From positions 1-44,733 of the forward strand of contig JBGAQM010000002.1 in NCBI GenBank assembly GCA_044220735.1: 44,733 nucleotides of DNA, in the 5' to 3' direction. Positions 12,238-40,100 of this stretch are shown here, one piece after another. This DNA comes from Urbifossiella sp. Lineage in GTDB: Bacteria; Planctomycetota; Planctomycetia; Gemmatales; Gemmataceae. The notes below the pieces were generated by a model. It made no database searches. It was not told where the DNA came from and saw only the letters and a list, made by a program, of their open reading frames with translations. Position numbers and translations under genes: made by a program. The first letter of the stretch is position 1. Each line of letters starts with the position of its first letter.

Positions 12238-12255
12238 CGAGAGGTCGTCGCGGTC

Positions 12256-12292
12256 ACGCCCACCCGTTGCAGCGGGTGGGCGTTTTGCGTTT
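12256..12292 (+). terminator. Probable intrinsic terminator after the kinase-PilZ gene
   Basis: acgcccacccg-ttgcag-cgggtgggcgt is an 11-bp stem followed by tttgcgttt, starting 19 nt after the TAG. Confidence 0.7.
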
Positions 12293-12350
12293 AACAGCCC
12301 TGCGGCATCGGCCGCGACCCAGGCTTCTCCACCCCATCGCCGGGTCCGAC

Positions 12351-17800: not shown

Positions 17801-19178
17801 GATGGCACTCGGCTCGGCGTCGGCCGGCACGGCGGTCAACCTGGGCGGCCAACTCCTCCTCGACGGCAGCTTGACCGTCCTCGGCGAGTCGCTGACCGTC
17901 AGCGGCATGGGGCCGAACGCCGGCGCGTACGGCGCGACCATGTCGAGCACCGACGGCGCGCTGGCCGCCACCGGCGGGGCGAGCCAGTGGACCGGGACGG
18001 TGGCGCTCGGCGGCGTCGTCTCCATCGACGCCACCGCCCTGTTCCCGAATGGCGGGTTCACAACGTTCACCGGGTCCGGCGTTGGCGTCGCCCCCGGGGC
18101 GTCGCTGAACGTCTCCGGCCTCGTGTCCGGCGGGGCCGACATCGTCAAGATGGGCGGCGGTCAGTTGGAACTGAGCGGCACACTGGCGAACTCCGTCAGC
18201 CAGGGGCCGCGGATCAAGCAGGGCACGCTGCTGCTGAACAAGCTCCCGGGCGTGGCGGCGGTGTCGATCAACACGGCGACGATCAGCGTCGGCGACGACG
18301 TGCCCGGAAACAGCGCCACCCTCCGCTTCGGCGCCGGCTACCAGTTCGGCGCCGCCAACTTGACGAACGTGCTGACGGTGGCCAGCAACGGGACGGTTGA
18401 CCTGGCCGGCACGCACCAGGCGTTCGGCTCGATGAACCTGGTCGTCGGGCCGGCGGGCGGGGCGGCCGTGACCGTGGGTGCGGGCGGCTCGCTGACCGTG
18501 GCCTCGACCGCAGTACCCCCGTTCGGCAGCGTGACCGTCCACGCCCTCGGCGGCGGCAACCCGACCGGCGCGACCGTCAGCGGCGGCACCCTGGTGCTCG
18601 ACACGTTCAACTCCTCCGGGACCGCCCAGCAGCGCACCTACACCGTCAACGACGCCGCCGCCGGCGTGGACTTCACGATCTCGTCCGCGATCACCGACGG
18701 CACCGGCTACCGGCCGAACGGCATCATCAAGGCCGGGTTCGGCGCGATGCAGTACGACGGCGCCACGGCCAACACCTACACCGGCACGACGACGGTGAAC
18801 GACGGCACGCTGTTGCTGAACAAGTCGCCCGGCGTGCTGGCGATGCGTGGTCCGCCTCCTGGCCGCGAACCAACTCCCCGACTGGCAGGCGCTGGTGACC
18901 GTCAACGGCACCGGCCTCCTCGACCTGAACAACTTCAACGACACGATCGGCACCGCCGACGGGCAGACCGCCCTGAACGTCACCAGCGGCGTCGTCCGCA
19001 CCGGTACCGGTGCCGGCGCCGGCACGCTCACCCTCAACGGCGACCTGGTCACGACCGCCTTGTTCGGCGTCGGCACGCTGCCGGGGACGAACAACGTGCT
19101 CGCCGCGCCCGTCATCGCCGGGAAGCTCAACCTCGGCTCCGGCTACGCCCGCACGATCAACGTCAACGACCGCAATGA
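14895..19178 (+). CDS. Giant beta-helical surface protein, N-terminal part (sense lost after ~18845; last ~110 aa are out-of-frame tail)
   Basis: N-terminal WLRKVF...RPALGHEVLEDRTLFA (planctomycete extracellular LE[PD]RxL[LF] motif), then W.GLG.DG.WS..ANW. PATR / autotransporter-associated beta-strand repeats follow (ITKLGDGVLALAGANTFEG, LSKTGAGTLMLSGNNTYQG, LTKGGLGNLILEGANQF). The G/T/A/V/N-rich sequence turns R/P/H-rich after NKSPGVLAM. Confidence 0.88.
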   Translation: MPPFQEWLRKVFGPRARAGRLKGRTDRPALGHEVLEDRTLFATRVWAGLGSDGLWSTPANWTGNVAPQPDDNLVFPAGAGRLTNTNDYAADTRFRSVTISAAGYAIGEQAPGANRVVLLDGVVYPAALGNAAFNVPVALGANQTFFAANAGATLTLGAIDLASLQTLSIDGRGDLVAGGAVTGTGGITKLGDGVLALAGANTFEGIVNVTQGSISLRSDTALGSTVGGTIAGLGTSILLDGGVTVPENLVVRDVGRGFDLSALGAVRSVSGTNRLTGTIAMNNHGSFGADAGSTLIVSGAVMVEPNVSDGGLTKFGSGTVELAGSTDNVITGTVTVVQGTLRLNKDRSGPATPLAFNAALIVGDNRDGVAAADAARVELGARDQIPELNFNRTGVNLVTVNSTGTLDLNGFDDQVGSLTLLVGRSSAAKVITGAGTLSTLGDITTNTFQGSSGASPAARISGNLNLGSFFSGAGGVATRTIAVNDTALFSLNPDLVIDANISGGPQVSLSKTGAGTLMLSGNNTYQGATRLTAGVTDIGRDGAFGNSSMVAVSGGFLRAVDPAGNPAARTTPGTIPWEFDADFGIYGSGALTIGGPVTLTATRTITTFDPAQVTTLAAGIGEGLFPGAGLNKRGRGELNIAGPATFTGTLGIGTNNSTADGGTLRLSGPAGALTRSLNTILVGVNSSLVLDAAAGNNADRLPDAAPIDLYGTLRLIGNAGGTTETVGLVRPQGGVTSTIASDTTGAGSNRLVLGSLGATATNAAVTFAAGGTPLSEAGQNQINVLQAPTNMPVTNNVIANAVVLNPDGSADFATVTTGVVGRAITALPAAGYVTSFDAANPTSNVKITSGTVTLDRSRTVNALILGPGVTVNGVDSTGQLTVATGPVVLSAGSRLAVPFLSMTPNAAASSANPFFLVAPSGAAVLSSSIAGTTGGTLTKGGLGNLILEGANQFTSSVIVGQGVLTVRNSMALGSASAGTAVNLGGQLLLDGSLTVLGESLTVSGMGPNAGAYGATMSSTDGALAATGGASQWTGTVALGGVVSIDATALFPNGGFTTFTGSGVGVAPGASLNVSGLVSGGADIVKMGGGQLELSGTLANSVSQGPRIKQGTLLLNKLPGVAAVSINTATISVGDDVPGNSATLRFGAGYQFGAANLTNVLTVASNGTVDLAGTHQAFGSMNLVVGPAGGAAVTVGAGGSLTVASTAVPPFGSVTVHALGGGNPTGATVSGGTLVLDTFNSSGTAQQRTYTVNDAAAGVDFTISSAITDGTGYRPNGIIKAGFGAMQYDGATANTYTGTTTVNDGTLLLNKSPGVLAMRGPPPGREPTPRLAGAGDRQRHRPPRPEQLQRHDRHRRRADRPERHQRRRPHRYRCRRRHAHPQRRPGHDRLVRRRHAAGDEQRARRARHRREAQPRLRLRPHDQRQRPQ

Positions 19179-22100
19179 ACTGATGGTCGATGCCGTCCTC
19201 ACCGCCGACGTGAGCGGCACCGCAGACGTCTTCAAGATCGGGGGCGGCAATCTGCTCGTCTCGGGGGCCAACAGCGGCTGGTCGGGGGCGCTCTCGATCA
19301 ACAACAACGCCGGGTTCAACCAGGCGAGCCTGACGGTCGGCAGCGACACCGCCCTCGGCACCGGGGTGGTGTTCCCGGTCAACACGATCCAGATCGGCGC
19401 CGACGGCGGCCCGCGGTCGATCGCCAACCGGGTGGTCACGCAAGACCTGCGCCTGTCCGGCGGCAACGACCTCACCCTTAGCGGCGCCGTTGACCTGAAC
19501 GCGGGCGCCACGTTCACCGTGTTCGCCCCTGTCAACCTGGCGTTCACCGGCGGCCTCGGCGAACTCGTAAACGGGTTCAACCTCAGTAAGTCCGGGGCCG
19601 GCACCCTCGTGATCGCCTCGCCGGCGCTGATGTCCGGTGCGCTAACGATCAACGGCGCGGGCGGGTCGGTGGTCGTGACCGGGGCGGGCACGCTGCCGAA
19701 CGTGTCGGGCGTGACCGTAAACGTTGGCGGCACACTCCTCCTCGACAACACCACGACGGCCGTCGGCGACCGCCTCCGCGACGCGGCCCAGGTCACGCTC
19801 GCCGGCGGTGCGCTGGAGTTCCGCGGCAACGCCGCCGCGCCGGTGTCCGAGGTGGTCGGCACGATCCAGGCGAACAGCAACTTCTCGTCCACGGTCACGA
19901 GCGTGTCGCAGGGCGCCGCCGCGACCCTGTCGGCCAACCTGCTGTCGCGCCAGGCGTCGAGCTTCGTGTCGTTCCGCGGGTACGGGGCGGACCTCGGCTC
20001 GGCCACGAACCGCCTCATCTTCTACACCCCGTTGACGCCACAGTTGGTCAACGGCGTGCTGCCGTTCGCCACGCTGGCGAAGGCCGGCGACCTCGACTTC
20101 GCCGGCTACGACCCGGCCCGCGGCGTGGTCGCGGCCGCGGCCCGCACCACGCTCGCCGGCGCGGCCGCGACCGACAGCGTGAAGCTGACCGCGAGCCAGA
20201 GCATCTCCGCCGCGACGGCGGTGAACGCGCTGCTGATCGTCGGCTCGAACGTCACCGTCGGCGGCACCGTGCCGCTGCTCGTCGGCTCCGGGCTGCTCGT
20301 CGGCGACGGCGCGAGCAACAAGCTGACCACGCCCGTCCTCTTCGGCGGGGCGACGGGGTTGGTCAACGTGTCCACCCTGCGGCAGCCGGGCGCCGGCCCG
20401 TCGTCGCTGGAACTCGCGGGCGCCGTGGACGGCGAGAGCGGCCTGACCAAGTTGGGCACCGGCCGGCTCACCCTGGCGGCCGCGAACACCTACGCCGGGG
20501 CCACCACGGTGGCCGAGGGCGTACTCCGTGCGTCGGACGGCGGGGCGCTCGGGGTCACGGCCGGCGGGGCCGCGTCCCAGGGCACGACCGTGCTGACCGG
20601 GGCGGCGTTGGAACTGGACGGGTCGGCCGCGAACCTGTCGGTCGGGGCGGAGGCGCTGACCCTGAGCGGCGCCGGGTTCGGGTACGGCAACCAGACCGCC
20701 ATCCTGACGAGCGGCAACACCGGGGCGCTCCGCAGCCTGGCGGGGGCGAATTCGTGGGCCGGGAGCCTGACCCTCCCGAGCCCGGGCGGCGGCCAGACCC
20801 TGGCCGTGGTCTTCGGCGCCGACGCCGGGTCGCTGACTCTTACGGGGACTCTCACCGGCGGGGGCACCGGCGACGTAAACAGCCGGCTCAACATCAACAA
20901 GGTCGGCGGCGGGACGGTCGTCCTCGCCGGGGCCACCGCCGCGACGACCGTCGGCGCCGGGACCCAGGGGCAGATCAACACGACCGTGTTCGAGGGCACG
21001 CTCGCGCTGAACAAGAGTCCCGGCGTCAACGCCCTGCCGAACCAGGTCCAGAACAACATCCAGGTCGGTGACAACGTCGGCCCGGCCGGGGCGGACGTCC
21101 TCCGCCTGCTCGCGTCCGACCAGATCGCCGACACCAACCACCTGATCACCGTCCAGGGCTCCGGCCTGCTCGACCTGAACGGCAACAGCGAGCGGATCGA
21201 TACCACCCTGAACCTCGTCAGCGGCCTCACCGCGTCGGCGGCCGTCACCACCGGCGCCGGCACACTCGTCATCAACACCGCGAACAACATCACGGTCACT
21301 GCCCAGGCGAACACGTTCGGCAACCTCACCCCCGTCGTCGTGTCCGGCACCCTCGCGCTGAACGTCGGCGGCGGGGCGGCCGCGACCCGCACCGTCACCA
21401 CGAACGACACCATCGGCGAGGTGGACCTACGCCTCGCGGCGCGGCTCACCGACGGCGACGGCAACGCGAACCTTCAGAACATCACCACCGCGGGGAACGG
21501 GCGGCTCGAACTGACGAACGGCGCGAACGACTTCTCCGGCGTGTTTACCGTCGCCGCCGGCCGCACCCGGGTGAGCGCGGCGGGTGCCCTCGGCGCCAGC
21601 GGCGCCGGCGCCGGCACGACCGTGAACGCGAACCTCAGCCTGGAACTGAACGGCGTCACGGTGGTGGACGAGGTGCTGTCGCTGAACGGCAGCGGGTTCG
21701 GCGGCCGCGGCGCCCTCGTCGGCGTCCCGGGAACCACGAGCGTGTGGCAGCAGAGTACGTTCGTCGGCAACCTCATCACCCTCGCGGGTGCCGCGACGAT
21801 CGGCGTGGACACGGCCGCGACCGTGGACCTGTCGGCGTCGGTGAGCATCGGCTCGACGATCACGAAGTTGCTCCCCGGCACGCTGCGGCTGTCGGGCGGC
21901 ACGCTGGCGAACTCGGGAGCCGGCGGGCTGATCATCGCCGAGGGCACGGTTCGGCTGGCGAAAAACGCCGGGGTCGACGCGTTCGGCACAGGCACCCTCG
22001 ACGTCAGCGCGAACAACGACTTCGGCGGCCAGGACGCCGACGTGCTGATCCAGGAGGCGAGCGAGCAGATCAACGCGGCCGCGAACGTGCGGGTGTCCGC

Positions 22101-25100
22101 GTCCGGGTTGTGGGACCTCGGCGGGTTCACCGAGAGCCTCGGCAACGGCAGCACCGGCACGGTGCTGACCCTGTTCACCGGGCTGGCGCACCGGGCGCAC
22201 GTCAAGAACGGCACCCTCACGCTCGCCGGCGGCACGGTCTCGACCAGCAACATCACCGTCAGCACCGCGACCGGCGGGCTCGGCGCCAACATGCTGAGTA
22301 ACTCCCTGGGCGTGTGGTTCGACAGCGACCTGGCGGTGAACCTCGGCGGGTCGCGGCGCGACTTCATCACCAACCCGGCCGGATTCTCGCAGAACGTCCT
22401 GCAGGTGGACGGCGTGGTCACGAACGGCCAGATCAACAAGACGAACGTCGGCGGCACCCTGCTGCTGACGAACGCGGGGAACAACTTCGGCGCGAACGAA
22501 GCGCAAACCCTCACCGCCCCGGGGGCGGCGTTCACGCTGACCTTCCGCGGGGCGACGACCGTGAGCCTCGCCGCCGCCGCCGCCGCGTCCGGCGGCGCCG
22601 GGTCGGTGCAGACGGAGTTGGAAAACCTCTCGACGATCGGGGCCGGAAACGTCGTGGTCACCGGGGCCGCCGGCGGCCCGTACACGATCACGTTCCAGGG
22701 GGCACTGGCGAACCGCGACCTGCCGCTCCTGACGGCGAGCGTCGGCACCATCGCCGAGTTGCAGATCGGCGGGGCGATCCTGCTCCAGGGCGGCGTCGTG
22801 GCCGTCGGCAACAGCGGCGCCCTCGGGGGCGGGCTGAGCGCCGCACGCAACAGCGCCGGCAGCCTCCGCGCCGACGGCGGCGCGGTCACGATCAGCCGCC
22901 CGGTCGATCTCGTCTCCGGAACCAGTGGCGCGTTCGCGTTCACGATCCTCGGCGACGCCCCGCTCACGTTCGCCGGCCCGGTCTCGCTCGGCAACAACGA
23001 CGCGACGATCACGGTGAACACGCCGCAGGCCGTAACCTTCGCCGGCTCCCCGGCCCTCAACGTCGGCGTCCGGACGGTCACGATCAACACGATCGCCGGC
23101 AACACGACGACCCTCGCCGGCGCCCTCGTGGACACCGCCGGCCCCGCCGCCGGGGCGCTCACCAAGAGCGGGCTCGGCACGCTGGTGCTGGCCGCGGCGA
23201 ACGCCTACGACGGGACGACGACGGTCAGTGCCGGCGTGCTCCGGGCCGCGAACTCGGCGGCGCTCGGGACCACGACCAACGCCGTGCAGACGTTCGGCGT
23301 TACGAGCACCGGCGGCGGGTCGTTCACCCTCACGTTCAACAACCAGGTGACGCCGGCCCTCGCGTACAGCGCGACCACCCCGCCGACGGCCGCGGCCGTC
23401 GAGGCGGCGCTGAACGCGCTGCCGCTGGTCGCCGCGGTCGGCGGCGGCATTTCCGTCACGTCGTCGACGCCGGCCGGCCCGACGACGACGTACACGGTCA
23501 CATTCGGCGGCGCCCTCGCCGGCTTCGCCCAGGGGCTCATGACGGTCACCGTCACCACGCCTGTCTCCATCAGCACCGCAGCCGCGATCACAACGGCCGG
23601 GGGCGGCGGCACCACGGTCTCGTCCGGCGCGGCGCTCGAGGTGGCCGGGAGCGGCAACACCTTCGCCGAGTCGCTGACCCTGAACGGCATCGGCCTCGGT
23701 GGGGCGCCCACCGGCGCGCTCCGCCTCTTCGACGCGACTCCCAACTCCGCCGAAGCCGTGACCTGGACCGGCAGTATTGCCCTCGCGGCGGCGACAGCGG
23801 TCGGCGTGACGGCCGGCGGCGCCAACGGCGACACCCTCACCCTCGGCGGCACCGGAACCATCACCGGGGCGAACTCGCTGACCAAGTTCGGCGAGGGGAC
23901 GGTCGTGCTCGGCGGGACCAGCAACAACACCTACACCGGCGGCACGGTCGTGGCCCAGGGCACGCTCGTGCTGAACAAGCAGGACACGGCCGGCCGGCCG
24001 TTCCAGCCGAACGCCACCGGCACCGGAGCCGTCACCGTCGGCGACGAGGGCGGGCTCGACGTGATGGTGTACGGCGGCACCGCGGGCGTGGACCAGCTGT
24101 ACGGCCTGGGCAGCGTCACCGTCACCACGTCGGGGGTGTTCGACCTGAACGGGAAGTCCGACTTCATCGGCGGGCTCGTTCTGGAGACGGGCCGGCTGAC
24201 CAGCGCCGTCGTTCAGACGGGGGCGGGGGCGCTCGTCCTGTCCGCCGACGTGGTGGTCAACCCGTTCGGCCCGTCCGCGTTCGCCGGTACGCCCGCGACG
24301 ATTTCCGGCACCCTCACCCTGGCCGGCGCGGTGAACGCCAACCAGGTGGGGACGAGTAACACGGCGCCGCAGTTCACCGTGAACACCGGCGCCGTGTTGA
24401 CCGTGACCGCGGCGGTGGGCCAGCTCCAGCCGGTCGGCGGGTTCGTCCCCGGGCTCCAGGAGTCGCGCATCCCCCGCGGCACGTTCCCGAACGCGGCGGC
24501 CCCCCTCACCCCGACCGCCAACCAGCTCTACCCGCGGCTCGGCGAGGTCTTCAACGGCGCCACCCCCGGAAACCCGTGGGGGACGAACGAGATCTGGGTC
24601 TACACCGGGCAGTTCTTCGACGCCGACGGCGTCGTGTCGTTCGGGTCGAACATCGACGACGACGCCTACATCAGCATCGACGGCGTCGTGGTGTACGGGC
24701 CGTTCAGCGACAACACCTCTCACGCCTCGGGCCTCCTCACCCTCGGGGCCGGCGTGGGCGGCGGCTGGCACACGATCGACATCCGGGTCGGGAACGGGAG
24801 CGGCGGGGCGGGGGCGAACAACGCCAACGGGTGGACGAACGCGTTCGGCTTCGGCATCGCCCCGAACGGCACGACCTCGACCGCCGGCACCAGCTACGCC
24901 ATGCCGGTCGATAACGGGTCGATGAACCTGTTCCGCAGCGCGTCCGCCGCGGTCCCGTACGCGCTCGCGAAGTCCGGCGGTGGCGTGCTCAACCTCACCG
25001 CCGCCAACACCTACACCGGCGGCACCACGGTCAGCGCCGGCACGCTGACGTTCGCCGGCGCCGGCTCCGCGGCCGCGACATCGGCCGTGTCCGTCGCCGC

Positions 25101-28100
25101 CGGCGGCGTGCTGGTGCTCGACAACACTGCTACGAACAACAACAACCGCATCGCCGACGCGGCCGCGGTCACGCTCGGCGGCACGCTGTTGTTCAAGGGG
25201 AACGCGACGACCGCCTCGACCGAGACGCTCGGCGCCCTGGCGCTGACGGCCGGCACCGCGTCCACCGTCCGCTCGGAGTACGGCGGCGTTCCCGGGCAGG
25301 CGCTCACGTTCACCGCGTCGTCCGGGGCGGTCCTTACCCGCAACCCCGGGGCGACACTGAACCTGTCGACGGACAACGACTTCGTACTCGGGGTGAACGA
25401 AGTCCGGTTCGTGGCCACCGGCACGGCGACTCTGCCCGGCCTGACCGGCGGCGTGCTCCCGTGGCTCACCGTGACAACGTTCTCGGCCCCGGCCGCCGGC
25501 GCGGGGGCGGAGGCGATCGACCTCGGAACCGACCTCGACCCCGGGGCGCTGACTCTGAGCCTGGGGCGGCTCCTGGCGTACGACGCCAGCAACGTCAAGG
25601 TGACCAGCGGGAACACCGGGCTCACCCTCGGCAGCACGATCAACGCGCTGCTGCTGGCCGGCTCCGGCCTCACGGCCAACGTTTCCGGGACCACGACCGT
25701 CACCAGCGGGCAGGTGGTGAACGTCGGGGGGTCGAACAGCATCGCCGGCGGGACGCTGGCGTTCGCCGGGGCCGAACCGCTGTTCTTCACGTTCGGCGCC
25801 AACGCGGCCCAGACGATCGACGTGACCGGCGTGACGGCGCCGGTGTTCACCCTGACGCTGCCGGTGAACGCCCCCGGCACCACGTCGCCGACGCAGGGGC
25901 CGACGCAGGTGGCGCCGTCGGCGGTGCAGACGACCGGCCCGCTCAACCCCGCCACGCTCACCGCCGCCGCGCTGCGGCAGGCGCTCGAAGCGCTGCCGGC
26001 CGTCGGCCCCGGGAACGTCTCGGTCGCGCAGTCGGGGACGGTATTCACGGTCACGTTCGTCGGCGCCCTGGCCGGGGGCGCAATCCCGAAGTTGGTGGCG
26101 AACGTGACCGGCGCCGGGGTGGTGCCGCTCGTCGCCGTGTCGGCCGCCGGCGGCGGCGTGCTCGCCGTCGGGTCGTCGGTCACCGGGACGACGGCCGGTC
26201 GCAAGCTCCGCAAGGGCGGGCTGCGGCTGAGCGGTGACAACCAGGCCGGCGGCGGGTACACCGGGGTGCTGACCGTGGAAGAGGGCGAACTGATCGCCGG
26301 GCACGTCAACGCCCTGGGGGCGGTCGCCGCGGGCACCACGGTCGCTCTGGGGGCGGCGCTCACCTATGACCTCGCCGGCACGGTGACGGCCGCGGCCGAG
26401 CCGCTGACGCTCAGCGGCACCGGCTACCTGAACAACGACTCCGGCGCCCTCCGGGTGGTCGGCGGCGGCACCGTCACGCAGGCGGCGGCGGTCACGCACG
26501 TCGGGGCGAACCTGGTCGTGTCTGTGGACGCGGCGTCCACCCTGATCCTCACCGGGTCGCTGACCAACGCCAACCAGAACTTCATCAAGGCCGGGGCCGG
26601 CACGCTCGAGTTCGGCGGTACCGGTAAGGCCGGCGGGGGCAACGGCGTGTTCGTCAACGCCGGCACCCTGCGGCTGAACATGACCGGCACCAACACGATG
26701 AACAGCCACCTGTTCGTCGGCAGCAACGACGGCGGGCCGGCCGCGGCGCAGGTCGTTTACGCCACGACCGCCGGGACCGACCAGATCGTCGCCGGGGCGA
26801 ACGTCACGATTTACCGGTCCGGGCGGATCGACTTCAACGGCATCACGGACACGTTCACCTCGCTGACGATCCTGGAGGGGAGTGCGGTCAACTCGCGGTC
26901 CGTCGCCAACACCATCACCTCGACCAGCGGCCTGACCATGACCGGTGGGTCGGTGGACATGGGCACCGGCACCCTGACGCTGGGGGGGAACGTGACGGTG
27001 AACGCGGGCGGCGGCCCGGCGACGATCGCCGGCACGCTCGCCCTCGGCGCCGCGGCCCGCACGTTCACGGTCAACGACTCGGCGGCCCGCGACGATCTGG
27101 TGGTCTCGGCAAACATCACCAGCGGTGTCGCAGGCGCGCTCGTGAAGGCCGGCGGCGGCACGCTCGTGCTGACCGGCTCGAACGCCGTCCTCGGCACGAA
27201 CGAGGTGCAGACGCTGACGTTCAACAACGCCCCGCTCGGCGGGGCGTTCATCCTCGCCTTCGGCGGGGCGGTGACGGCGCCGATCGTCTTCGACCCGGCG
27301 AGCCAGGCGAACAACGTCGCGGCGATCCAGGCCGCGCTCCAGGCGCTCCCCACGGTCGGGGCCGGGAACCTCACGGTCACGTCGTCGAGCATCACGGCGT
27401 ACACCGTCACGTTCGGCGGCGCCCTCGCCGGGGCCGACGTCCCGGCGATCATCGTGGCCCTCGACCAGGCGCTCGGCAGCGCGGCCGCCCCGCAGCCGAC
27501 GATCACGGTTGCGACGCCGACCGGCGGTGTGAGCGGCTACCAACTCGGCGGCGGCGTGTTGGCCGTCGGGAGCGCGAACGCCCTCAACACCGCGCTGGCC
27601 CGCACCGGCCTTCAGATCACCGGCACCAGCGAGTTGTGGGCCTACGGCGCCGACCGCACGCTGTTCAACTCGCTCCAGGTCGGCGCCAGCTTCACCCTCG
27701 GCGCCCGCCGCGACGTGGTCGGCTCCGGCGACACGGCGCTCCTGGCCGGCCCCGGCACCAACGACCCGTTCAACCTCACGTTCGACGCCACCACGCGCGG
27801 CACCATCAACACCCTCACGCCGACGCTGACGGTAAACGACCCCAACGCCGGCGTGTCGATCCTCGGCAACCTCGGCGAGAACACGACCACGCTGGCCGCC
27901 GCGGGCAACCAGATCATCAAGGCCGGGTTCGGCCAGCTCACGCTCGGCGGCAACAACGCCTTCACCGGGTTGACGTCGGTGAACGTCGGCACCCTGCGGG
28001 CCACCTCGAACAACGCGCTCGGGGCGCCGCGGACGGCCACCCAGCGGGTGACGCTGGCGGCCGTCGGCACGTTCGGCCTCACGGTCACGGCGCCGGCGGC

Positions 28101-31100
28101 GTTCGGCGGTCAGATCCTGGCCACCGGGGTGGTGTTCACCGACACCACCACCGCCGCCGCGATGCAGGCCGCGCTCAACGCCCTGCCGTCGGTTGGGGGC
28201 GTCGGCGGGTCGGTCACCGTCACCCGCGTGGTGAACCCGGGCGTCCCGGGGACCGTGTACTGGTTCATCGAGTTCGGCGGCACGTTCGCCGGGTTCGACG
28301 TCACGGTCGCCGTGAACGCCGGGACCGCGACCCCCACCGTGGCGACTGCGTTGGCCGGCAACATCGTCGGCGCAGCCGTCGGCACGTCCGTCGCGACCGG
28401 GGCCGCGCTCGTCCTCGACGGCAGCCTCTCGATCGGCAACGAGTCTCTGTCGCTGACTTCCGGCTCGGGCGCCGGTTCCGGGTACGTCGGCGACACCGGC
28501 CTGGCCACGAAGGGCGGCGGGTCGCTGGTGGGGGTCAACGGCACGAGCACCTGGGGCACCGGCGAGACGCCGATCACCCTGGCCGGGAACACCGTGACCG
28601 TCGGCGACGGGCTGGTGTTGAACGCGAGCGTTTCGGGCACCGTCGGGCTGAACAAGGTCGGGGCGGGCACGCTCGTGCTCGGCGGCGCCGCGCCGAACAC
28701 GTACTCGGGCACCACGTTCGTCAATGACGGCACCCTGGCGCTGGCGAAGGCGGCGGGGATGCCGGCGGTCCTCGGGGCGATCAACGTCGGCGACGACATG
28801 GGGACCGGGCCGGACGTGCTCGAACTGCGGGCGTCCGAGCAGTTCCTCTACGGCGGGGCGACGAGCATTCCGGTGAACGTCCCGAGCGTTCAGGCGTCCG
28901 GCGCGATCCGCACCACGGCCGCGATGTCGGCGAGCGTCACGCAGGAAGTGCAGGCGATCGTGTTCGCCGGCACGACCGCCGGGAACACCTACACCATCAA
29001 CGCCGGCGGCCCGATCGCGACTGCGGTCACCGGAGCGCTGGTCAACGACACGGCCGCGCAACTCCAGGCCCGGCTGACCGCACCCGGCGTCCTCGCGGCC
29101 GGCGTTACCGGCGTCCGCGTGTTGCAGTTCGGCACGAGCCCGAACGTCACGAACGTCCTGATCTTCACCACGACCACGAACCAGGGTGCGATCTCGGCCA
29201 CCGCCCCGACCACGGGCACGACCACCGTCACCACGCTGGTGAACGCCGGGCTGCTCGGCCGGCAGACGGTCGCCGGGCTGACGATGCAGATCGGCTACGA
29301 CCCGACCAGCCCGAACACCGGAACCGCCGCCCGTGTCGTCCTCGACGCCGGCTCGACGCTCCACCTCGCCGGCAACGTGACGACCACCGCCGAGCCCGGT
29401 GCGAGCGGTTTCGGCGCGACCCCCGAGATCACCGGCGGCACGCTGGCGCTCCTCCCCGAGGCCGCGACCGCGGGGACGGCCCGCACCTTCACCCTGGTCG
29501 ACGCCGCGCTCGCGACCGACTTCACGCTCTCGTCGGCGGTCGTGGACGGGGCCGCGTTCCTCGGCGGCCTCACGAAGGCGAACGCGACCGGGGCGACGGC
29601 CAGCCGCCTCGTGCTGTCCGGGGCGAACACGTACACCGGCGTCACGAACCTGACCAGCGGGTTCCTCCAGGCCGTCGGCGGGTCCGCGCTCGGGGCGTCG
29701 AACGCGACGCAGGCGGCCGGCACGACCGTTCAGCCGACCGGCGTGCTGGAACTGAGCGGCACGACCATCGCCGGCGAGCACCTGCAACTGTTCATTACGA
29801 ACGGTGGGTTCGGCATGCAGCCCGGTCTGTACGACGCCCCGGGGCAGTTCGCCGTCGCCCAGCCGTCGGGCGTGAACAACATGTACGGCACCGGCGTCCT
29901 CCGCGCCGTCGGCGCGGCGACGAGTACCTGGGCCGGGAACGTCGAGTTGCGCAGCCAGGACACGGGCAACCGGTTCCTCGCCGTCGGCGCCGACGCCGGC
30001 AGCACGCTGGTGATCGACGGCGTGGTGTACGGGGCGAACAGCAGCAACACGGTGCAGGGGAACGGCCTGGTCAAGGTCGGCACCGGCACCCTGGAGGTGC
30101 GCGGGGCCAACACGACGACGGTGACGGGCTTCGGCTCGAACCCGGCGACGACGTACACCGGCAACACCGTCGTGACCGCCGGCACGCTCGTGCTCAACAA
30201 GCCGGGGACGGCCATCGCCGGCACGCTGATCGTCGGCGACGGCCGCGGCGGCAACGACGCCGACGTGGTCCGCTACGGCCCGCTCGCGGGCACGGACGAG
30301 ATCGGCGCCGTGACGGTGACGGTACTCGGGTCGGGCAAGCTCGACCTGTCGCAGGCGAAGGCCCAGGGGAACGAGACGCACCTGCTGACGTTCCACCCGT
30401 CGACCGCCGGCGGCACGTTCAACCTGACCTACCTCGGCCAGCCGGTCGGCGGCGCGGCGATCACGTTCAGCACGGTCGCGGCGACGACCGTGACCAGCCT
30501 CACGAACGCGCTGGCCGTCGCGTTCGGCGCCGGCAACTTCACCGTCGCCAACGCCGGCGACGCCTACCACTACGCGATCCAGCTCACCGGCCAGTTCGCC
30601 GGCGTGAACGTGTCCGACTTCGGCGCCGCGAACGTGGCGCTGACCGGGCCGAGTCCGAGCGTGGCCGCCACGAAGCTGCGCGACGGGGCCGGCAACGAGT
30701 CGCAGACCGTCACCCTCGGCGGCACCACGGGCGGCACCGTGACCGTGTCGTTCAACGGCGTCGCCGGGTCGGCCGGGACCATCCTGACGTACACCCCCGC
30801 CACGTCGCCGACCGCCGCGCAGGTCCTCGCGCACCTCAACACGATCCCGGCGCTGGCCGGGAACGTCGCCGTCGCCGGCAACCCGGGCGGCCCGTTCAGC
30901 GTCGTGTACCGCAACGGCCTCGGCAGCGTGGACGTCGGTGACACCGTGCTGACGTTCGCCACGACGGGCGGCACCACGGCGGTGGTGGCGACCGACGGCC
31001 AGGGCGGCAACGCGACCCCCGGCACGCTCGGGAACGAGGTGCAGCTCCTGACGCTCGGCGGCTCCGTCACCGGCGGCGGGTTCCTGCTCAACCACGCCGG

Positions 31101-34100
31101 GTACGTCACCGACGTGCTGCCGTTCAACGCGAGCGCGGCGGCGATCCAGGCGGCGCTGGCCGCGCTGCCATCGGTCGGCACGGGGAACGTCGCGGTGACG
31201 GCGCTGTCCGCGACCGACTTCCTCCTCACCTTCCGGGCCGCGCTCGACCAGCGCGACGTGGCCCAGACGACGGCGATCAACACGCTCGCCGGGTCCGCCC
31301 CGACGGCCCTCCTGAGCACCGTCCTGGCCGGCGCCCCGACCGACGCGGTCGGGGCGATCAACCTCGCCCACGGCGCCGACCTCGACACCGGCGCCCTGTC
31401 GCTGGTGCTCGGCGGCAACCTGACGGTGTACGGCCACGCGGGGGCGAACGGGTCGGCCACGGTCCTCGGAAGTCTCGACCTCGTCAACACCGGGCGGACG
31501 ATCGTGGTGAACGACGGCGCCGCGGCGGCCGACCTGAGCCTGACGGCGTCGCTAACCGGGCAGGCCGGCGCGGCGGTGACGCTGTCCGGCCCCGGCACCA
31601 CCGACTACGCGGGCGCCGCCCGGCACCTGTACGCCGGCCCCACGACCCTGAACGAGGGGACGCTCGTCCTGAACAAGACGACCGGCCCGGCGATTCTCGG
31701 CACGCTGACGGTCGGCGACGGCGTCGGCGGCCCGGCCGCGGACGTGGTTCGGTACGGGGCTGCGGGCGGGGCGAACCAGATCGCCGACCCGGTCGGCGTG
31801 GTGGTGAACGCCTCGGGCCTCCTCGACCTGGCGAACAGGTCGGACGCGTTCGGCGCCGCCCCGTTGCCGACCAGCACGACCGGCCCCACGTTCGGGCTGT
31901 CGCTCCAGGTCGCGCCGGGGTTCAGCGCCGCCGTCGCCACCGGGACGGGCACCCTCACGCTCCTCGGCAGCGTGAACGTGACGCAGTCGAACGCCCCCCT
32001 CACGACCGCGGTGACGCCGTCCGCGACGATCAGCGGCAGCCTCAACTTCGCCGGCGGCGTCCGCGCCATCAACGTCGCCGACGGGGCGGCCGCCAACGAC
32101 CTCGTCGTGTCCGCAACGATCGTGGACGGCACGAGCGCCGGGCTCGTCGAGGCCCGGCTCACGACCAGCCAGTTCGACGAGACGACGCCGAACCCGGGCG
32201 GCCAGAATCAGCTCTACCCGCGGATGGGCGAGACGAGCGCGAAGCCGCCGTGGGGCGACAACGAGACGTGGGTCTACACCGGCCAGTACTTCGACGCCGA
32301 CGGCCAGTTCGCGTTCGCCGAGAACATCGACGACAACGTGTTGATCATCATCGACGGCGTCGTGCGGTTGCGGAACACGGGTAGTACGCCGTCGTCGGCG
32401 TTCAACACCGCCACCACGACGGGAAGCACCGTCGGCGGGAACTCCACGACGACCGGAACAGTGGCCGGCGCCAACACGTTCGGCGGCACCACGAACTTCG
32501 GCATGGGGCCGGCCGGCGACGGCTGGCACAACATCGAAATCCGCCTGGGGAACGGCGGCGGCGGGGCGGGGCCCGTCGCCAGCACGGCCGGGTCGGGCGC
32601 TCCGAACTGGACGGCGGCGTTCGGCCTCGGCCTCCGCGACTCGACCACGAACCTCACCAGCGTGGACGCCTTCGACTACCTCATCCCCACCGACCCGGGC
32701 GACGGCTCGCGCTTCCGGTCCGTGCGGGGCGGCATCGTCGCCGGCGGCACCGGTCGGGTCGTGTTGGCGGGCGCCACCACCCTCACGGGCGGCGTGTCGG
32801 TCACGGCCGGCGAGCTGATGATTACCGCGGCCACGTCGTTCGGCGGGACCACCGCCGTGTCGGCGAACGCCGCCCTTACGCTCGCCGGCGCCGGGACGCT
32901 CGCCGGCACCACCGGCCTGACCGTCGGCTCAAACGCCCGGCTGACGCTCGACAACAGCACGACGAACCTCCCCGACCGCCTCCCGGACGCCGCCCCGCTG
33001 ACGATCAGCGGCGGCACCCTGTCGTTCGTCGGCAACGCGGCCGGATCGACGGAGTCGGTCGGCGCCGTCACCCTCGGGGGCAACACCACCTCGACCGTGC
33101 GTTCCAGCACGTCCGGCGGCACCAACGTGCTGACGCTCGGCGGGCTCACCCGCGGCGCCGGCGCGTTCGTCAACTTCGTCGGCGGGACCACCGACCTGGG
33201 GCCGGCCGAGAATCAAGTGAAGGCGACCGGTGTGACGAACAATGCCGTCATCCCCTACGCCGAGGTCGTCGGGGGGAACGGCGCCCAGCTCGCGGCCTAC
33301 AGCACGGCCGTGGGCGTCCGCGGCGTGCCGCCCGCGACGCAGCCGACCGTCTACAAGACCAGCTTCGCCGAGGTCACCAGCCCGACCGACGTCGTGCGGC
33401 TGACGAGGAGCGAAGCAATCTCCGGGGCCGTGACGGTGGCCGGGCTCGAAATCGCCGGCGACGGCGTGTCGATCACCGGGGCCGGGTCGCTGACCGTGTC
33501 CAGCGGGACCGTCACGGTGACGGGCGGGAACCCGATCGCGGCCACGATCGCGGTGCCGCTGACGCTGGGCGCCGCCTCCGGCGCCGACGACGTGGTCCAG
33601 ATCGACGCCGGCGCCACCCTGACCGTGACCGGCACGCTCACCACCACCGCCGGCGCGACACTCCGCAAGCGCGGCGGCGGCACCCTGACGCTGCCCGGCG
33701 CGAACGCCGTGGCTTCCGCCGTGGTGGTGGAGGAGGGGGTGATCCGTGTCGGGGCGTCGAACTCGCTGGCGACCGCGGCGACCACGGTGTCGGCCGGGGC
33801 GGCCCTCGAGTTCACCGCCGACCTGGGCTCGTTCGTCGCCCCGCTCACCGTCAACGGCCTCGGGCCGAACCTCACCGGCGCCCTCCGCTTCGCGCCGGGC
33901 GTCACGAGCGTCCAGCTCGGGCCGACCGGCAACACGAACGGCGGCACCGTCCTCACGCTCGGCTCGACGACGGCGTTCGCCGTCCCGGCCGGCGGTACGC
34001 TCACCGTCAACGGCGTGGCGACGGCCGGGGCCGCGCAGACGGCCACGAAGTACGGCACCGGCACGCTCGTGCTCACCGGCAACGGCGCCAACAGCGGGAA

Positions 34101-37100
34101 CTTCAACCTCGTGGTCGCCGAGGGGCAGGTGAACCTGGCGAAGACGGCCGCCGTGGCCGTGGCCGGCACCCTGACGGTCGGCGACGACGCGGGCGGGGAC
34201 GACGCCGATCGGGCGACCGTCACCGGCGCCGCGGGTCAGTCGGCGACCCTGGTCGTGACCAGTTCCGGCCGGTTCGACCTGAACGGCATCAACTTCACCG
34301 CCAACGCGGTGACGCTGTCCGTCGGCCCGGCCGCGAGCGGCGACGTGGTGAACACGTCGGCCACGGCGGCGACGCTGACCCTCAACGGGAACGTCACGCA
34401 GAACCTGGCTGCGAACGCGAGCTTCGGCAACGCCCTCGGCGCCGCCCCGCCGGCTCGCATCGGCGCCGACGGGTCCACGAACTTGACCCTCAGCCTGAAC
34501 AACGCCGCCCGCACGTTCACCGTCACCGACCGCACGTCGTTCACCGCCCTGAGCAGCACGTCGGCGCTGGCCCAGCCCGGGAGCGACGACCTGCGGGTGA
34601 ACGCGGCGATCACCGACGGCGGCACCGGCGGCACGCTGACCGCCTCCGGGTCCGGCCGGCTCGCGCTCGCCGCGGCCAACACGCTCACCAGCACCGGCAC
34701 GGTCGTGACCGTCAACGCCAACACGATCCTGACGGTGCGGACCGCCGCCGGCTTCGGCACGACCGCCGGCGGCACCGTGCTGGTGAGTAGCGGCGGCACG
34801 CTGGAACTCGACTCGGCCGCCGCGCTGAACGTGAACAAGGCGCTCACCCTGCAGGGCGGCGGGGCGACGGAGTCGGTGGCCGGCGGGCTCGTCACCCGCG
34901 CCCTCGGCGCCCTCCGGGTACTCCAGGGCGACCACACCTGGGCCGGGCAGGTGACGCAGTCCACGGCCGGGGTCGGCATCGAGATGCCGAACGCGGCCAC
35001 GACGCTGACGTTCACCGGCGGGTACAACCTGGGCGGCCAGAACCTCACGTTCACCGGCCCCGGCACGCTCGACTTCCAGTCGGCGGTAACCGGCACCGGC
35101 TCGGGCGTCCCGGCGGTCAACATTCAGGACGGCACGTTCCGCCTCAGCGGCGCCGCCGGCGCCATGACCGGGCTCGGCGCGACGAACGGCGTGCGCGTGC
35201 AGTTCTCGGGGACCTTCCACGTCCGCGACACCGGCGCCGCGCTCGCGGACCGCGTCGGCAACACCACGCCGATCGAGCTGACCGGCGGCCGGCTGCTGTA
35301 CGAGGGGAACGCCGCCGGCAGCACCGAGACGTTCGGCACCGTCACCGTCGTGGCCGGCACCGCAAACGTGATCGAGACGCAGACGTCCGGCGGCACCAAC
35401 ACCCTCACGTTCGGCAACCTGGTGACCAACACGGGCTCGGCCGTGCGCTTCGTCGGCACCGGCACCGCGCTCGGGTCGGGCAACCAGCTGCTGTTCACGA
35501 CGAGCCCGACGCTCACGAACGGCGTCATCAACCGCGGCACGGCCCTGTCGGGCGGGCAACTCGACCTTGCCACCGTGACCGGGGCAGGGCCGTTCCGCGT
35601 CGAGGCGCTGCCGGCCGGCAGTTACTACACGGGCGCGCTGTCGGCCGCGCCGGCGAACGCGAACGTGCTGATCACCGCCAGCGACAGCAGCGGCGCCCCG
35701 GCGGCGGCGGTGAACGCCGTGCTCGTCCGCGGGTCCGGCATCGCCGTGACGGGTGCGGGCACGCTGACGACCGCCGTGCTGGCCGCGGCCGGCGGCGCGA
35801 ACTCGCTCTCCGGTATGGGCCTCACCAACGCCGGCGAGACGGTCGTGACCGTCGCCGCCGGGGCGACCCTCGACGTCGGCAGCACGATTTCGGGGGCGCT
35901 CGCCCTGACGAAGGCCGGCCCGGGCAACCTGCGGCTGAGCGGGCCGAGCGCCAACACCTACTCCGGCGCCACCGTCGTCGGGGAGGGGCCGCTGACCGTG
36001 GCGAAGGCCGGCGGGCTCTCGTCCAGCGCGACCGCGACGAACCCCGGCGGCGTGTCCGGCGGGCGGATCGTCGTGGACGGCGGCGGCACCGGGATCAGCG
36101 TCGGCAACGCGAACCTCACGCTCGGCGGCTTCTTCGGCATGGGCGGCGGGGCCATCCCGCTCCAGAGTATCAACGGCGCCAACACCTGGGGCACCGGCGC
36201 CACCACGATCGCGCTGAACAACTCGCAGGTCGGGATTACGGTGGACGCCGGCGGCACACTGACCCTGGCGGCGACGGTGACGACCGCGGGCAACGGCATC
36301 GTGAAGACCGGAGCCGGTACGCTGGTTCTCGCCGGCACCGGCGCGAACTCCTACGGCGGCAATACGATTGTCGCCGACGGCGCCCTGCGGCTGGCGAAGA
36401 CGGCCAACGTGGCCGCGATCCCCGGGGCGACGCTGGTCGTCAACCCGGGCCTCTCCGTCAGCGTCGTGACTCCGTTCGACGGCCAACTCGCCGGCGGCGC
36501 CAACGTCCGCCTGCTGGACGGGGCGACGCTCGCGCTCAACGGTACGTCCGGGACCGCGAACGAACTCACGCTCGTCGGCACCACCCTCGACACCGGGGGC
36601 GGCCTGCTCACCGTCAACAGCAACGTCCTCGTCGGCGAGAGCGCCACCGCGTCCGTCCTCGCCGGGGCCGTGTCGCTCAACAACAGTGCCCACAACTTCG
36701 TCGTCCCGGACGGCACCGCGGGGGCCGACCTGGTCGTGTCAGCGGCGCTGGTCGGCGGCGGGGCCACCACGGGGCTCGTCACGAAGCTCGGCACCGGGCA
36801 GATGGTTCTATCCACCGTCAACACCTACGCCGGCAGCACGGTCGTCGCCGCCGGGGTGCTCGAGATCCGCAACGCGTTCGCGCTCGGCACCTCGGACGGC
36901 ACCGCGGCGAACGGCACCGTCGTGAACGCCGGGGCGACGCTGCGGCTGAACGCGGCCGGCGGCCCGGACGTCGCCGTCGGGAACGAAGTGCTGACGCTGA
37001 ACGCGGCGGCATTCGGCTCCGGGGCGGTCGCTGGTGGGACGCTCGTGGCGCTCGACAACGCCGCGGGCAACAACGCCTGGAACGGGCCGATCGTCCTTGC

Positions 37101-40100
37101 CAGCGCCGCGACGGCCGGCCCGGCGGGGCTGGCGGTGAACGTGGCGGCCGGCACGAGCCTGGGCCTGGGCGGCACGATCAGCCAGACCGGAACGGCCGCG
37201 CTCGGGCTGACGCTCCTCGGCGCGGGTTCGACCGAGCTCCGCGGCACCACCGCGAACACCTACACCGGTACGACGACGATCGCCGCCGGCACGCTGACGC
37301 TGAACCAGTCCGCCGGCGTTGTCGCCGTGCCGGGGAACCTGGTGGTCGGGAACGCGGCCGCCGGCACGACGGCGACCGTCCGCCTCCTCTCCGGCGATCA
37401 GATCGCGGATTCCGCGGTCGTGAGCGTACAGGCCGGCAGCACGCTGGACCTGAACGGCAACGCCGACACGATCGGCGGGCTGACGCTCCAGACCGGCACA
37501 ACTGCGGCGTCCGTGGTGACGGCCGGGTCGCTCACGCTGCTCGGGAACCTCGTCGTCGGCACGACCGGCACCGGGGTGACCGGCGTGACGATTCCGGCGT
37601 CGATCACCTTCGGCACGTCGCCGCGTGAGATCGACGCGGCCGGGGCCTTGACGCTCGCAGGCCCGGTCGGCGGCCCGGCGTCGGCGGCGATCACCAAGCA
37701 AGGCGCGGGCGCCGTGACCCTCGCGGCCGGCGTGACCGAGACGTTCACCGGCCCGCTCCTCGTCAACCAGGGGACGCTGGTCGTGGACGCGACCACCGCG
37801 GCCGCGGCCGCCGTGTCTGTCGCCGCGGGGGCGACGCTGGCCGGCCGCGGGACCGTCGGCGGCCCGGTGACGGTACTCACCAGCACGCTCACCGCGCCGG
37901 CGACCGGCGGCACCCTGAATCCCGGAACCGCCGTCGCGGGGAGCACCGCCCGCCTGAGCACCGGCTCGCTGTCCCTCACCACGGCCGCCACGTTCCAGGC
38001 CGACCTGAGCGGTACAACGGCCGACAGCGGCTACGACCAGGTCCGCGTCGCCGGGGCCGTGAGCCTCGGCGGCTCGGTCCTCAGCATCGGCCTCGGGTTC
38101 ACGCCGCCCGCCGGCAGCGTCTACGTCATCATCGACAACGACGGGGCCGACGCCGTCACGGGCACGTTCGCCGGGCTCGCCAACGGCGCCACCGTCGCCG
38201 CCGGCGGCAGCACGTTCCGCATCTTCTACACCGGCGGCGACGGGAACGACGTGGTCCTCGTGGAGGCGACCGCGCCGACCACGGTGTACGTGGACGACGC
38301 CACGAACTTCAACATCGGCCACGCCCCGTCGCCGGGCGAGTTCATCCCGGACGGTGACCTCGGCACGGCCGGCGACCAGCCCGCGGTCTTCGAGGTCACC
38401 GCGTTCTCCACGATCAACGCCGGCGTCGCGGCGGTCGCGACCGCCGGGCTGGTGGTCGTCAACGCCGGCACCTACGGCGAGGCCGCGAACGTCAACAAGG
38501 CGGCGACCGTTCGGCTCACGACGGGGGCGGCCGTCACCGTCGATTCGCTCGACGCCGTCGCCGCCGCCACCATCGACCTCGGTGCGAACCTCCTGACCGT
38601 CGGCGACGCGACCGGCCCGCACACGATCGCCGGCACGGTCGTCGGCGCCGGCGGGTCGCTGAACAAGGTGGGCATCGGCTCGCTCGCGCTGTCCGGCGCG
38701 AACACCTACACCGGCGGCACGACCGTGTCGGCCGGCCGGCTGGCCGTGAACAACGCGAGCGGCTCGGGCGTCGGGAGCGGGGACGTCCTCGTCAGCGGCG
38801 GCACCCTGGCGGGCACCGGCGCGGTCTCCGGGAACGTGACCGTGAACAGCGGCGCGTTCCTGAGCCCGGGCGACCCGACGGGCACTCTGACCGTCGGCAA
38901 CGCCACTCTCGCCGCCGGCGCGACGTTCGTCACCAACCTGGCCGGCACCGCCGCCGGGCAGTTCGGCCAACTCGCCTCGGCCGGCACCATTGACCTGACC
39001 GCCGGGCCGGCGCTCCAGATCGTGCAGCTCTACTCGCCCGCCGACCTCGACAACTACGTCGTGCTTCACGCGCTCGGCACCGGCACCGTCACCGGCGCGT
39101 TCGCCGGCATCCCGCGGACGCTGTCGGTCGTGCCCGTGGTCACGCCGGCCTTCACGTTCAACTACGCATTCACGGCCGACGGCGACGCCCGCGCCAACGA
39201 CGGGCTGCTCGCCCGCGACACCGTGCCGGCGCTGGCCGCCCCGGCGAACCAGACGGTGAACGAGGGGGCGCTGACGACGGTCACCCTCGGCACCCTGACC
39301 GACACCGACGTCGGCGACTCGTGGACCGTGGACGTCAACTGGGGCGACGGCACGGCGCACACCGTGTTCACGACCAGCACGCCCGGGCTGCTCCAGGCCC
39401 AACACGAGTACGTCGAGGGGCCGAACGGGTACACCGTCACGGTCACCGTCACCGACTCGCTGGCGGCGTCGGCGACGACGAGCTTCGGCGTCACGGTCGA
39501 TAACGTGGCCCCGTTCTCGCTCGCCTCGGTCGTCGACACGCAGGACGTGAACGAGGGGAGCGCCCTGACGCTGTCCGGCTCGTTCGCCGAACCCGGCGTC
39601 CTGGACCCGGTCACGGTCACGGTCGGCTGGGGGGCCGGCGAGACGACCAGTACGTTCGCCGTCGGCCTGTTGAGCACCCGCGCCGCCGGCCAGACGGTCG
39701 CGTCGAGCACCGACGGGGCCACGCTCACGATCCTCTCCGTGGCGCCGGACAACAAGAGTTTCGGGTACACCGTCACCCACCTGTACCGCGACGACAACCC
39801 GTCCGGCACCGCGACCGACCCCTACGCCGTCACCGTGTTCGCGGCCGACGACGACGCGGGCGGGACGGGGTCGTCCACGGTCCACGGCATCTTCGTCCAA
39901 AACGTCGCCCCCGTGCTCGGCGGCGTGGCCGTGACCGCGCCGTCGATCAGCGAGGGCGGGACCGCCACCGTCGTCGGCACGCTGTCGGACGTGGGCGTCC
40001 TCGACACGCAGACGCTGACCGTGGCGTGGGGCGGCGGCGAGACGACGTCCACGTTCGCTGTCGGGGCGCCGGCTTCGCTCGCGGTCGGGCAGACGATCCC

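What the first reader, a model, noticed from the sequence alone, without database searches (positions are those of the whole stretch)
22495..31335. Beta-helix used as a display scaffold: nine 'NEVQ' domains spliced into at least four different loop positions
Seen: a ~100-aa module (e.g. NEVQTLTFNNAPLGGAFILAFGGAVTAPIVFDPASQANNVAAIQAALQALPTVGAGNLTVTSSSITAYTVTFGGALAGADVP) interrupts repeats mid-motif, and the repeat resumes afterwards. Insertion sites: inside the PATR GxN..G motif (22495, 27199), between ALG and GT[TS]V (23278, 28033), after the SG.LDL-type strand (28942, 30370) and after EPLFFTFG (25801). All copies lie in the middle 9 kb of the stalk. From memory, unverified: the GGTFTL...AA.VQ.AL..L...GNV.V.G..GGPYT.TF pattern resembles accessory domains of actinobacteriophage capsid and tail proteins. 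Inference: a mobile binding or decoration domain has repeatedly inserted into permissive loops, giving a bottle-brush fibre.
Basis: partly seen in the sequence, partly recalled or inferred. Interest (0 to 1): 0.75.

Follow-up and report, generated by a model that had tools for sequence, protein, structure and literature searches.

The report
Phage surface domains on bacterial stalk
A giant protein of a planctomycete bacterium carries nine copies of a small domain also found on the outside of phage heads and tails, spliced into loops of its predicted beta-helical stalk, where they likely act as many weak contact points for sticking to surfaces or other cells.

Summary
Confirmed. Nine ~100-aa modules sit at seven points, in four loop classes, of a ~10,000-aa PATR beta-helix protein of a Gemmataceae-like planctomycete. 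Eight align strongly; the copy at 28942 is divergent but significant. No Pfam or NCBIfam family covers them. They are homologous to the 'C-terminal extension' (CTE) domain of mycobacteriophage Bxb1 capsid, tail-tube and tail-tip proteins (profile E 6e-23; structure Z 12.9). A model of one insert with its flanks folds the insert separately and keeps one helix across it. Across 25 non-redundant relatives, 106 of 148 insert runs map to 17 positions of the repeat, mainly at natural length-variable loops; copies even nest inside each other. The insertions are old, not currently mobile: an orthologue at 72% identity keeps all nine. Direction of phage-bacterium transfer is unresolved. Binding is inferred, not shown. 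I found no description of this domain on cellular proteins, but could not read the main Bxb1 paper.

The parts
14895..18845 (+). N-terminal part of the giant protein: planctomycete-type leader with an LEDRTL motif (label recalled; no Pfam hit), then PATR beta-helix repeats with no inserts
   Evidence: 74% identical to residues 42-1350 of the intact G001 frame
18845..18846 (+). Apparent frameshift; 56 bases are missing from this assembly
   Evidence: contigs of 2 of 4 runs laid (two studies) carry 56 extra letters here; the G001 orthologue is one 10,073-codon frame
18846..39237 (+). PATR beta-helix stalk built from at least four repeat-unit types; carries all inserts
   Evidence: Pfam PATR and TIGR02601; unit profiles; model matches IcsA passenger
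22495..22773 (+). CTE-like module 1, inside the PATR N-x-F..G turn
   Evidence: 95 bits to non-window profile
23278..23607 (+). CTE-like module 2, between ALG and GTTV; modelled with its flanks
24421..24954 (+). Second inserted domain type, PA14-like, copy a, just before a PATR
   Evidence: PA14 E 0.0034 for 1 of 4 aligned copies; weak PDB match E 0.014
25801..26157 (+). CTE-like module 3, after EPLFFTFG (long repeat unit)
27199..27528 (+). CTE-like module 4, same loop class as module 1; modelled alone
28033..28359 (+). CTE-like module 5, same loop class as module 2
28942..29250 (+). CTE-like module 6, divergent, after the SG.LDL-type strand
   Evidence: fails leave-one-out; 17 bits, 0 of 500 shuffles; 87% kept in orthologue
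30370..30693 (+). CTE-like module 7, first of a tandem triplet after the SG.LDL strand
30694..31032 (+). CTE-like module 8, tandem
31033..31332 (+). CTE-like module 9, tandem; helix resumes after it
32140..32727 (+). PA14-like inserted domain, copy b, just before a PATR-type strand
39238..44034 (+). About 15 PKD/Ig-like repeats
   Evidence: Pfam PKD_4; 15 motif matches
44035..44733 (+). FG-GAP propeller; cut by the contig end about 80 residues before the C-terminus seen in the orthologue

Best explanation
The nine modules are homologues of the phage CTE domain inserted into loops of a predicted beta-helical stalk, which likely projects from the cell and uses them as side domains for multivalent, low-affinity contact with surfaces or other cells. 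Shown: homology, positions, family-wide reuse of loops, nesting, an intact orthologue. Predicted: the domain folds on its own with its two ends close together, so it can be dropped into any turn without breaking the coil; the helix continues beneath it (modelled for one of four loop classes). Inferred: the protein is exported by its planctomycete leader and held by the C-terminal PKD/FG-GAP part; about 6,700 stalk residues would give a rod of roughly 130-160 nm (recalled helix geometry); the copies spread by in-frame recombination between repeats and with prophage tail genes, long ago. The ligand is unknown; a cell-wall or matrix polymer is the best guess, with the two PA14-like inserts as likely sugar-specific heads.
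For: Homology: profile E 6.2e-23 to Bxb1 gp23 and 0.0031 to its capsid protein; VIA Z 12.9, rmsd 2.2 A over 102 residues to gp23, Z 10.1 to the capsid protein; hhalign 97.9% to a Hookmount minor tail protein domain. Looped-out: composite model pLDDT 86.6, pTM 0.73; residues 49-160 match gp23 (Z 13.6) while 163 residues over range 1-293 fit the IcsA passenger helix at 3.4 A, more than the 133 residues after the insert. Insertable anywhere: 17 positions in 25 proteins, near indel hot spots of empty units; nested copies in 17 of 152 proteins; internal insertion in phage tail and sheath proteins. Retained under selection: 58-87% identity in the orthologue against 57-83% for flanks. Contact role: on Bxb1 the extensions face outward (PMC8704799, passages); CTE-like domains shape the tail-tip cage (PMC13252515, passages); another paper calls the cage domains CBMs that flatten on cell-wall contact (PMC12474359, passage; that these are the same domains is my inference). 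Side domains on a beta-stem carry function in Hbp (PMC3521207, passages).
Against: No ligand is shown for any CTE domain in what I could read; the Bxb1 extensions are dispensable and of unknown function. The window copies have almost no Trp (0.1%) and little Tyr (1.2%), and the one semi-conserved aromatic column (78% Y/F/W in 407 homologues) is lost in several copies, unlike typical sugar-binding modules (recalled). Copies are only 22-45% identical, so a shared ligand is not assured. Only one loop class was modelled, and the aligner gives ranges, not residue pairs. The junction test gave no support for sites 28942 and 30370.
Confidence: 0.55

Rival explanations
1. The modules are structural side domains, not binders: they would stiffen or shield the long helix, space it from neighbours, or cross-link adjacent stalks, as CTE domains pack with each other on Bxb1 capsomers and in the tail-tip cage.
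For: Preliminary statement that Bxb1 capsid extensions form assemblies at capsomers; cage architecture; few aromatic or charged residues in the copies; conserved residues are mostly core hydrophobics and glycines.
Against: A single-chain beta-helix is stable without them: the same loops are empty elsewhere in this protein, and 14 of 15 mapped homologues have two or more bare PATR units before the first insert. Copy number and position vary widely between homologues.
Confidence: 0.27
2. The modules are near-neutral passengers: a domain with adjacent ends is tolerated in any loop, so it accumulates by recombination without a function of its own.
For: Dispensable on Bxb1 in the laboratory; many positions and nesting look indiscriminate; 5 of 24 same-family genomes and 15 of 15 sister-family genomes searched had no match.
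Against: All nine copies are kept in frame and conserved as well as the helix in an orthologue at 72% identity; 12 of 12 same-genus genomes carry the domain; about 965 residues of extra protein per molecule.
Confidence: 0.1
3. The modules are phage mimics or decoys: the cell would display virion-type domains to intercept phages, or to engage whatever the virion domain engages, such as grazers.
For: The same domain is in tail-module proteins of planctomycete prophages and in 856 of 50,697 phage records; it is immunodominant on Bxb1.
Against: A decoy should resemble the host receptor, not the virion surface (reasoning). No excess divergence of the modules over the flanks; no phage genes among the neighbours scanned in the window.
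Confidence: 0.08

Closest known systems
CTE (C-terminal extension) and CTE-like domains of mycobacteriophage Bxb1 capsid gp14, tail tube gp19 and tail-tip cage gp23 (PDB 9D9W, 9D93; Freeman et al. 2025, not held; described through PMC8704799 and PMC13252515 passages)
   Same: Sequence homology, fold, about 90-110 residues, accessory position on a long structural scaffold; gp23's copies look nested (three starts, then two tails), as in some planctomycete homologues.
   Different: Here the carrier is a single-chain cellular beta-helix, not a virion polymer; copies are inserted in many loop positions of one polypeptide rather than added once per subunit.
SPATE autotransporter passengers with side domains, e.g. 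E. coli Hbp d1-d5 (PMC3521207, passages), and PATR passengers such as IcsA (PDB 5KE1)
   Same: Beta-helical stem used as scaffold for looped-out domains; PATR repeats; model fits IcsA, Ssp and fusolisin helices.
   Different: Side domains of Hbp are five different domains; here one domain family is reused at many sites. No autotransporter barrel at the C-terminus; about ten times longer.
Peripheral domains of contractile tail sheaths and flagellin/FliD D2-D3 domains
   Same: Weaker fold similarity (VIA Z 7.7 to 4.9) and the same role as outward add-ons to filaments.
   Different: 9-17% identity; Z under 8 may be only a common arrangement; homology not shown.
Planctomycete giant genes (PMC5177795, passages)
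   Same: Genes over 20 kb with predicted adhesion or carbohydrate-binding roles.
   Different: The passages I saw name no PATR stalk with CTE inserts.

Membership tests
Bxb1-type CTE domain | Sequence homology to the Bxb1 extensions | tested here: met
   gp23 E 6.2e-23 (best single stretch 4e-7), capsid E 0.0031, tail tube E 3; PHROG tail sheath and major tail families hit 3 of 9 copies each
Bxb1-type CTE domain | Same alpha/beta fold | tested here: met
   model pLDDT 84; Foldseek E 1.8e-5; VIA Z 12.9, 10.1, 9.9 for the top three, all mycobacteriophage proteins; modules 2 and 4 only
Bxb1-type CTE domain | Ends close together so that the domain can be inserted | tested here: met
Bxb1-type CTE domain | Part of a phage virion protein | tested here: not met
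   carrier is a cellular PATR/PKD/FG-GAP protein among cellular genes
Bxb1-type CTE domain | Same function | not testable with these tools
   function unknown even on Bxb1 in the passages read
PATR beta-helix passenger | PATR repeats (PF12951, TIGR02601) and right-handed beta-helix | tested here: met
   IcsA passenger Z 11.6, rmsd 3.4, 163 aligned
Classical (type Va) autotransporter | C-terminal beta-barrel | tested here: not met
   C-terminal 1,024 residues give PKD and FG-GAP only; the orthologue ends about 80 residues later in a continuation of the propeller region (that tail was read, not scanned)
Two-partner secretion (TpsA) | Adjacent TpsB gene and TPS domain | tested here: inconclusive
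   upstream gene is a GH32; no TPS Pfam hit in the N-terminal part; downstream gene not in the window, and in G001 read but not scanned; genome not searched for TpsB
Ig-like phage accessory domains (Big, Hoc-like) | All-beta sandwich | tested here: not met
   model has a 13-residue central helix; Big_5 and Big_7 hits are sub-threshold, E 0.004 and 0.08
Carbohydrate-binding module | Exposed aromatic or polar binding site and demonstrated sugar binding | tested here: inconclusive
   low Trp/Tyr, one semi-conserved aromatic column; binding not testable
Intein or self-mobile element | Splicing residues at the ends; recent gain or loss | tested here: not met
   no Cys and no His-Asn end in the copies; none gained or lost in the orthologue; no listed joint removes a module in 4 runs, 134 joints not shown
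PA14 domain (second insert type) | PF07691 above its cut-off | tested here: inconclusive
   1 of 4 copies at E 0.0034; PDB RTX protein E 0.014; not folded

The most novel reading that the evidence does not exclude
One small snap-on domain with no Pfam model is a shared surface-contact module of virions, bacteria and microbial eukaryotes. Gemmataceae took it from prophage tail genes and turned their giant beta-helix stalks into phage-style adhesion brushes that bind the same class of envelope polymer as the Bxb1 tail-tip cage, so these soluble bacterial copies would reveal the unknown function of the phage CTE domain.
Probability: 0.2. Interest if true: 0.8.

Novelty: new variant of a known kind. 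Interest (0 to 1): 0.56.

Why it matters
The domain is very common (10,612 clusters at E up to 0.001) yet has no Pfam or NCBIfam model, and its role on phages is an open question. This case shows it works as a general insertion module on a cellular protein, maps the loops of a PATR helix that naturally accept 100-300 residue inserts (useful for display engineering), and gives candidate monomer-sized copies for binding assays. It also gives a concrete architecture for some of the uncharacterised giant genes of planctomycetes.

Tried and rejected
Pfam and NCBIfam name no family for the module. tblastn of window modules 8-9 against phages found nothing; a less low-complexity homologue did. A first junction test with permissive settings was saturated and uninformative. 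The first 92-row alignment forced empty repeats across the insert and was not folded; the folded one left out whole empty units and three misaligned rows. Foldseek on the composite model gave no match at E 0.001 or better. The tree of 77 domains had 3 of 74 well-supported branches, so donor and order of events are unresolved; nearest neighbours share a site no more than chance (24 of 70 against 29% expected) and share a protein somewhat more (10 of 70 against 4%). A two-copy complex job gave no verdict. I first read the PA14-like inserts as absent from the orthologue; the full alignment shows both present. A real frameshift or pseudogene was rejected. No CBM entry appeared in the top 50 fold matches, which does not exclude one. 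The protein atlas gave no answer. A named-genome scan with the alignment was not possible. Earlier findings of this scan: none on this domain.
Full report
Setting. The window is one whole contig of a 6.25-Mb, 76% complete genome. A same-genus genome encodes a protein that its source names 'Gemmataceae bacterium', so the organism is a Gemmataceae planctomycete. Runs that hold half or more of a sampled stretch are bioreactor, wastewater, soil and aquatic metagenomes where labelled. The finding lies in a gene that starts at 14895, appears to shift frame near 18845 and runs off the contig. The shift is an assembly gap: contigs from 2 of 4 runs laid carry 56 extra bases there, and genome G001 has one intact 10,073-codon frame that is 72-74% identical. 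The protein is a leader, a long PATR beta-helix, about 15 PKD-like repeats and an FG-GAP propeller, with no autotransporter barrel.

Observation. They are 22-45% identical. Leave-one-out profiles recover 8 of 9 at 16-52 bits against a background of at most 4 bits; the copy at 28942 fails but scores 17 bits on a profile of non-window homologues, above all 500 shuffles. No Pfam or NCBIfam family passes its cut-off.

Does the repeat resume? With the insert left out in a script, the joined flanks match insert-free repeats across the junction 79 and 28 times for the two ALG sites, 4, 2 and 1 times for 25801, 27199 and 22495, and not at all for 28942 and 30370. Profiles of four repeat-unit types place the ALG inserts between positions 39-40 and 37-42 of unit A and the triplet between positions 86 and 87 of unit B; 28942 maps on its downstream side only. 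An AlphaFold2 model of module 2 with its flanks (293 residues, 65-row alignment holding no whole empty unit) has pLDDT 86.6 and pTM 0.73. Its residues 49-160 match Bxb1 gp23 (Z 13.6, 2.4 A), while 163 residues over the range 1-293 fit the IcsA passenger helix at 3.4 A (Z 11.6); since only 133 residues follow the insert, both flanks most likely lie in one helix (inference from ranges). The other three loop classes were not modelled.

What the module is. The nine-copy profile finds Bxb1 tail-tip cage gp23 (E 6.2e-23), its capsid protein (0.0031) and, weakly, its tail tube (E 3) among 177,635 PDB sequences. The model of module 4 (pLDDT 84; strands, one helix, strands) has the same three kinds of top match: gp23 Z 12.9, capsid 10.1, a Patience protein 9.9, then sheath domains at 7.7 and below (searches agree). 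These are the 'C-terminal extension' or CTE-like domains (PMC8704799 and PMC13252515, passages). A homologue hits 856 of 50,697 phage records, 809 of them Mycobacterium phages, in minor tail, sheath and major tail genes; in 2 of 3 records examined the domain is internal. The window's own modules 8-9 found none by tblastn.

How general. The profile finds 10,612 clusters at E up to 0.001 among 1.84 billion representatives. It is present in 19 of 24 same-family genomes (12 of 12 same genus), 0 of 15 in the sister family and 18 of 300 other genomes of the phylum, by a shallower first look. There it also sits in ~950-residue proteins inside prophage head-tail modules (3 of 3 loci examined). Named carriers include an Actinomycetota and a Chloroflexota genome and a marine microeukaryote transcriptome; 14 of 20 proteins looked up gave no organism. 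The own genome has a second PATR protein with five hits. In 25 non-redundant PATR proteins (from 35 sequences, chosen because they hit the profile), 148 insert runs hold 246 copies; 106 runs map to 17 hand-drawn positions, 6 of them seen once, 40 runs at the ALG site; 42 runs did not map. The main positions lie at or next to columns where empty units vary in length. Some unmapped runs are in a propeller-like domain or nested inside another copy, after the helix (17 of 152 proteins); gp23 shows the same nested pattern. Nesting is good indirect evidence that the two ends of the domain are adjacent.

How mobile. Not now. The orthologue keeps all nine copies and both PA14-like inserts, at 58-87% identity against 57-83% for flanks. 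GC3 is 0.93-0.99 against 0.96 for the stalk. In four runs no listed joint removes a module, with 134 joints not shown. Window copies are as close to three phage copies (23-49%) as to each other, and the tree is unresolved, so the direction of transfer is unknown. Paired sites may be block duplications, though flanks of paired sites are not each other's best matches.

How it likely works. Architecture is well supported (about 0.9). For function I favour multivalent surface contact (0.55): the domain faces outward on virions, one paper describes the Bxb1 cage domains as carbohydrate-binding modules that flatten on the cell wall (PMC12474359, passage; no data seen, and their identity with the CTE-like domains is my inference), side domains carry function on the Hbp stem (PMC3521207, passages), and the stalk also carries PA14-like heads (weak). 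Against it, the Bxb1 extensions are dispensable and of unknown function, and the copies lack the aromatic residues usual in sugar binders (the conservation table is biased toward copies with an intact N-terminus). Structural or cross-linking (0.27), neutral (0.10) and decoy (0.08) readings remain. From the sequence pattern and the model's strands, the four loop classes seem to use different turns of the coil, which would fit a bottle-brush; this was not checked on coordinates.

Novelty. Both parts are known: beta-helices with side domains, and the CTE domain on phages. I found no description of CTE domains on cellular proteins in eight searches (listings and abstract starts, plus passages of the papers cited here; searches added nothing on this). 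The main Bxb1 structure paper and its supplements were not held and may mention such homologues. PMC5177795 (passages) notes giant planctomycete genes with predicted adhesion roles but not this design. Verdict: a real, family-wide, apparently undescribed use of a phage accessory domain; new variant of a known kind; interest 0.56.

Noticed in passing
window 24421-24954 and 32140-32727: A second inserted domain type, PA14-like with a DD motif, twice at the same loop class just before a PATR strand; kept in the G001 orthologue; its core motif was not found in the other proteins fetched.
   Followed up: partly
window 18845-18846: 56 bases are missing from this assembly, which splits the gene artificially.
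   Followed up: yes
P0011 (L023) residues 966-1225; PDB 9d93 chain M: Copies of the domain nest inside each other like Russian dolls, usually just after the helix.
   Followed up: partly
L044:11736-14612, L045:11266-13980, L046:9857-12733: Prophages of other Planctomycetota carry a ~900-960-residue protein with 3-5 CTE-like copies in the tail module; many top hits look like the same family.
   Followed up: partly
G000:C4:13544-4536 (- strand): A second PATR protein of the same genome with CTE-like inserts, one at a fifth loop class; its frame also begins mid-repeat, which may be another assembly break.
   Followed up: partly
P0003, P0058, P0126, P0145: The domain is also inserted in a propeller-like region that itself interrupts the beta-helix in Gemmataceae-type homologues.
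   Followed up: no
15 near-complete homologues: In 14 of 15, two or more PATR units precede the first insert, so the N-terminal part of the stalk stays bare.
   Followed up: no
P0067, P0007, P0008, P0043, P0086: Giant proteins with many copies that look eukaryotic; one is from a marine microeukaryote transcriptome, one has EGF-like domains.
   Followed up: no
window 1991-14504: Ordinary planctomycete neighbours: DUF1552 and DUF1592 cytochrome pair, Dus, two Ser/Thr kinases (WD40; PilZ-like), GH32.
   Followed up: no
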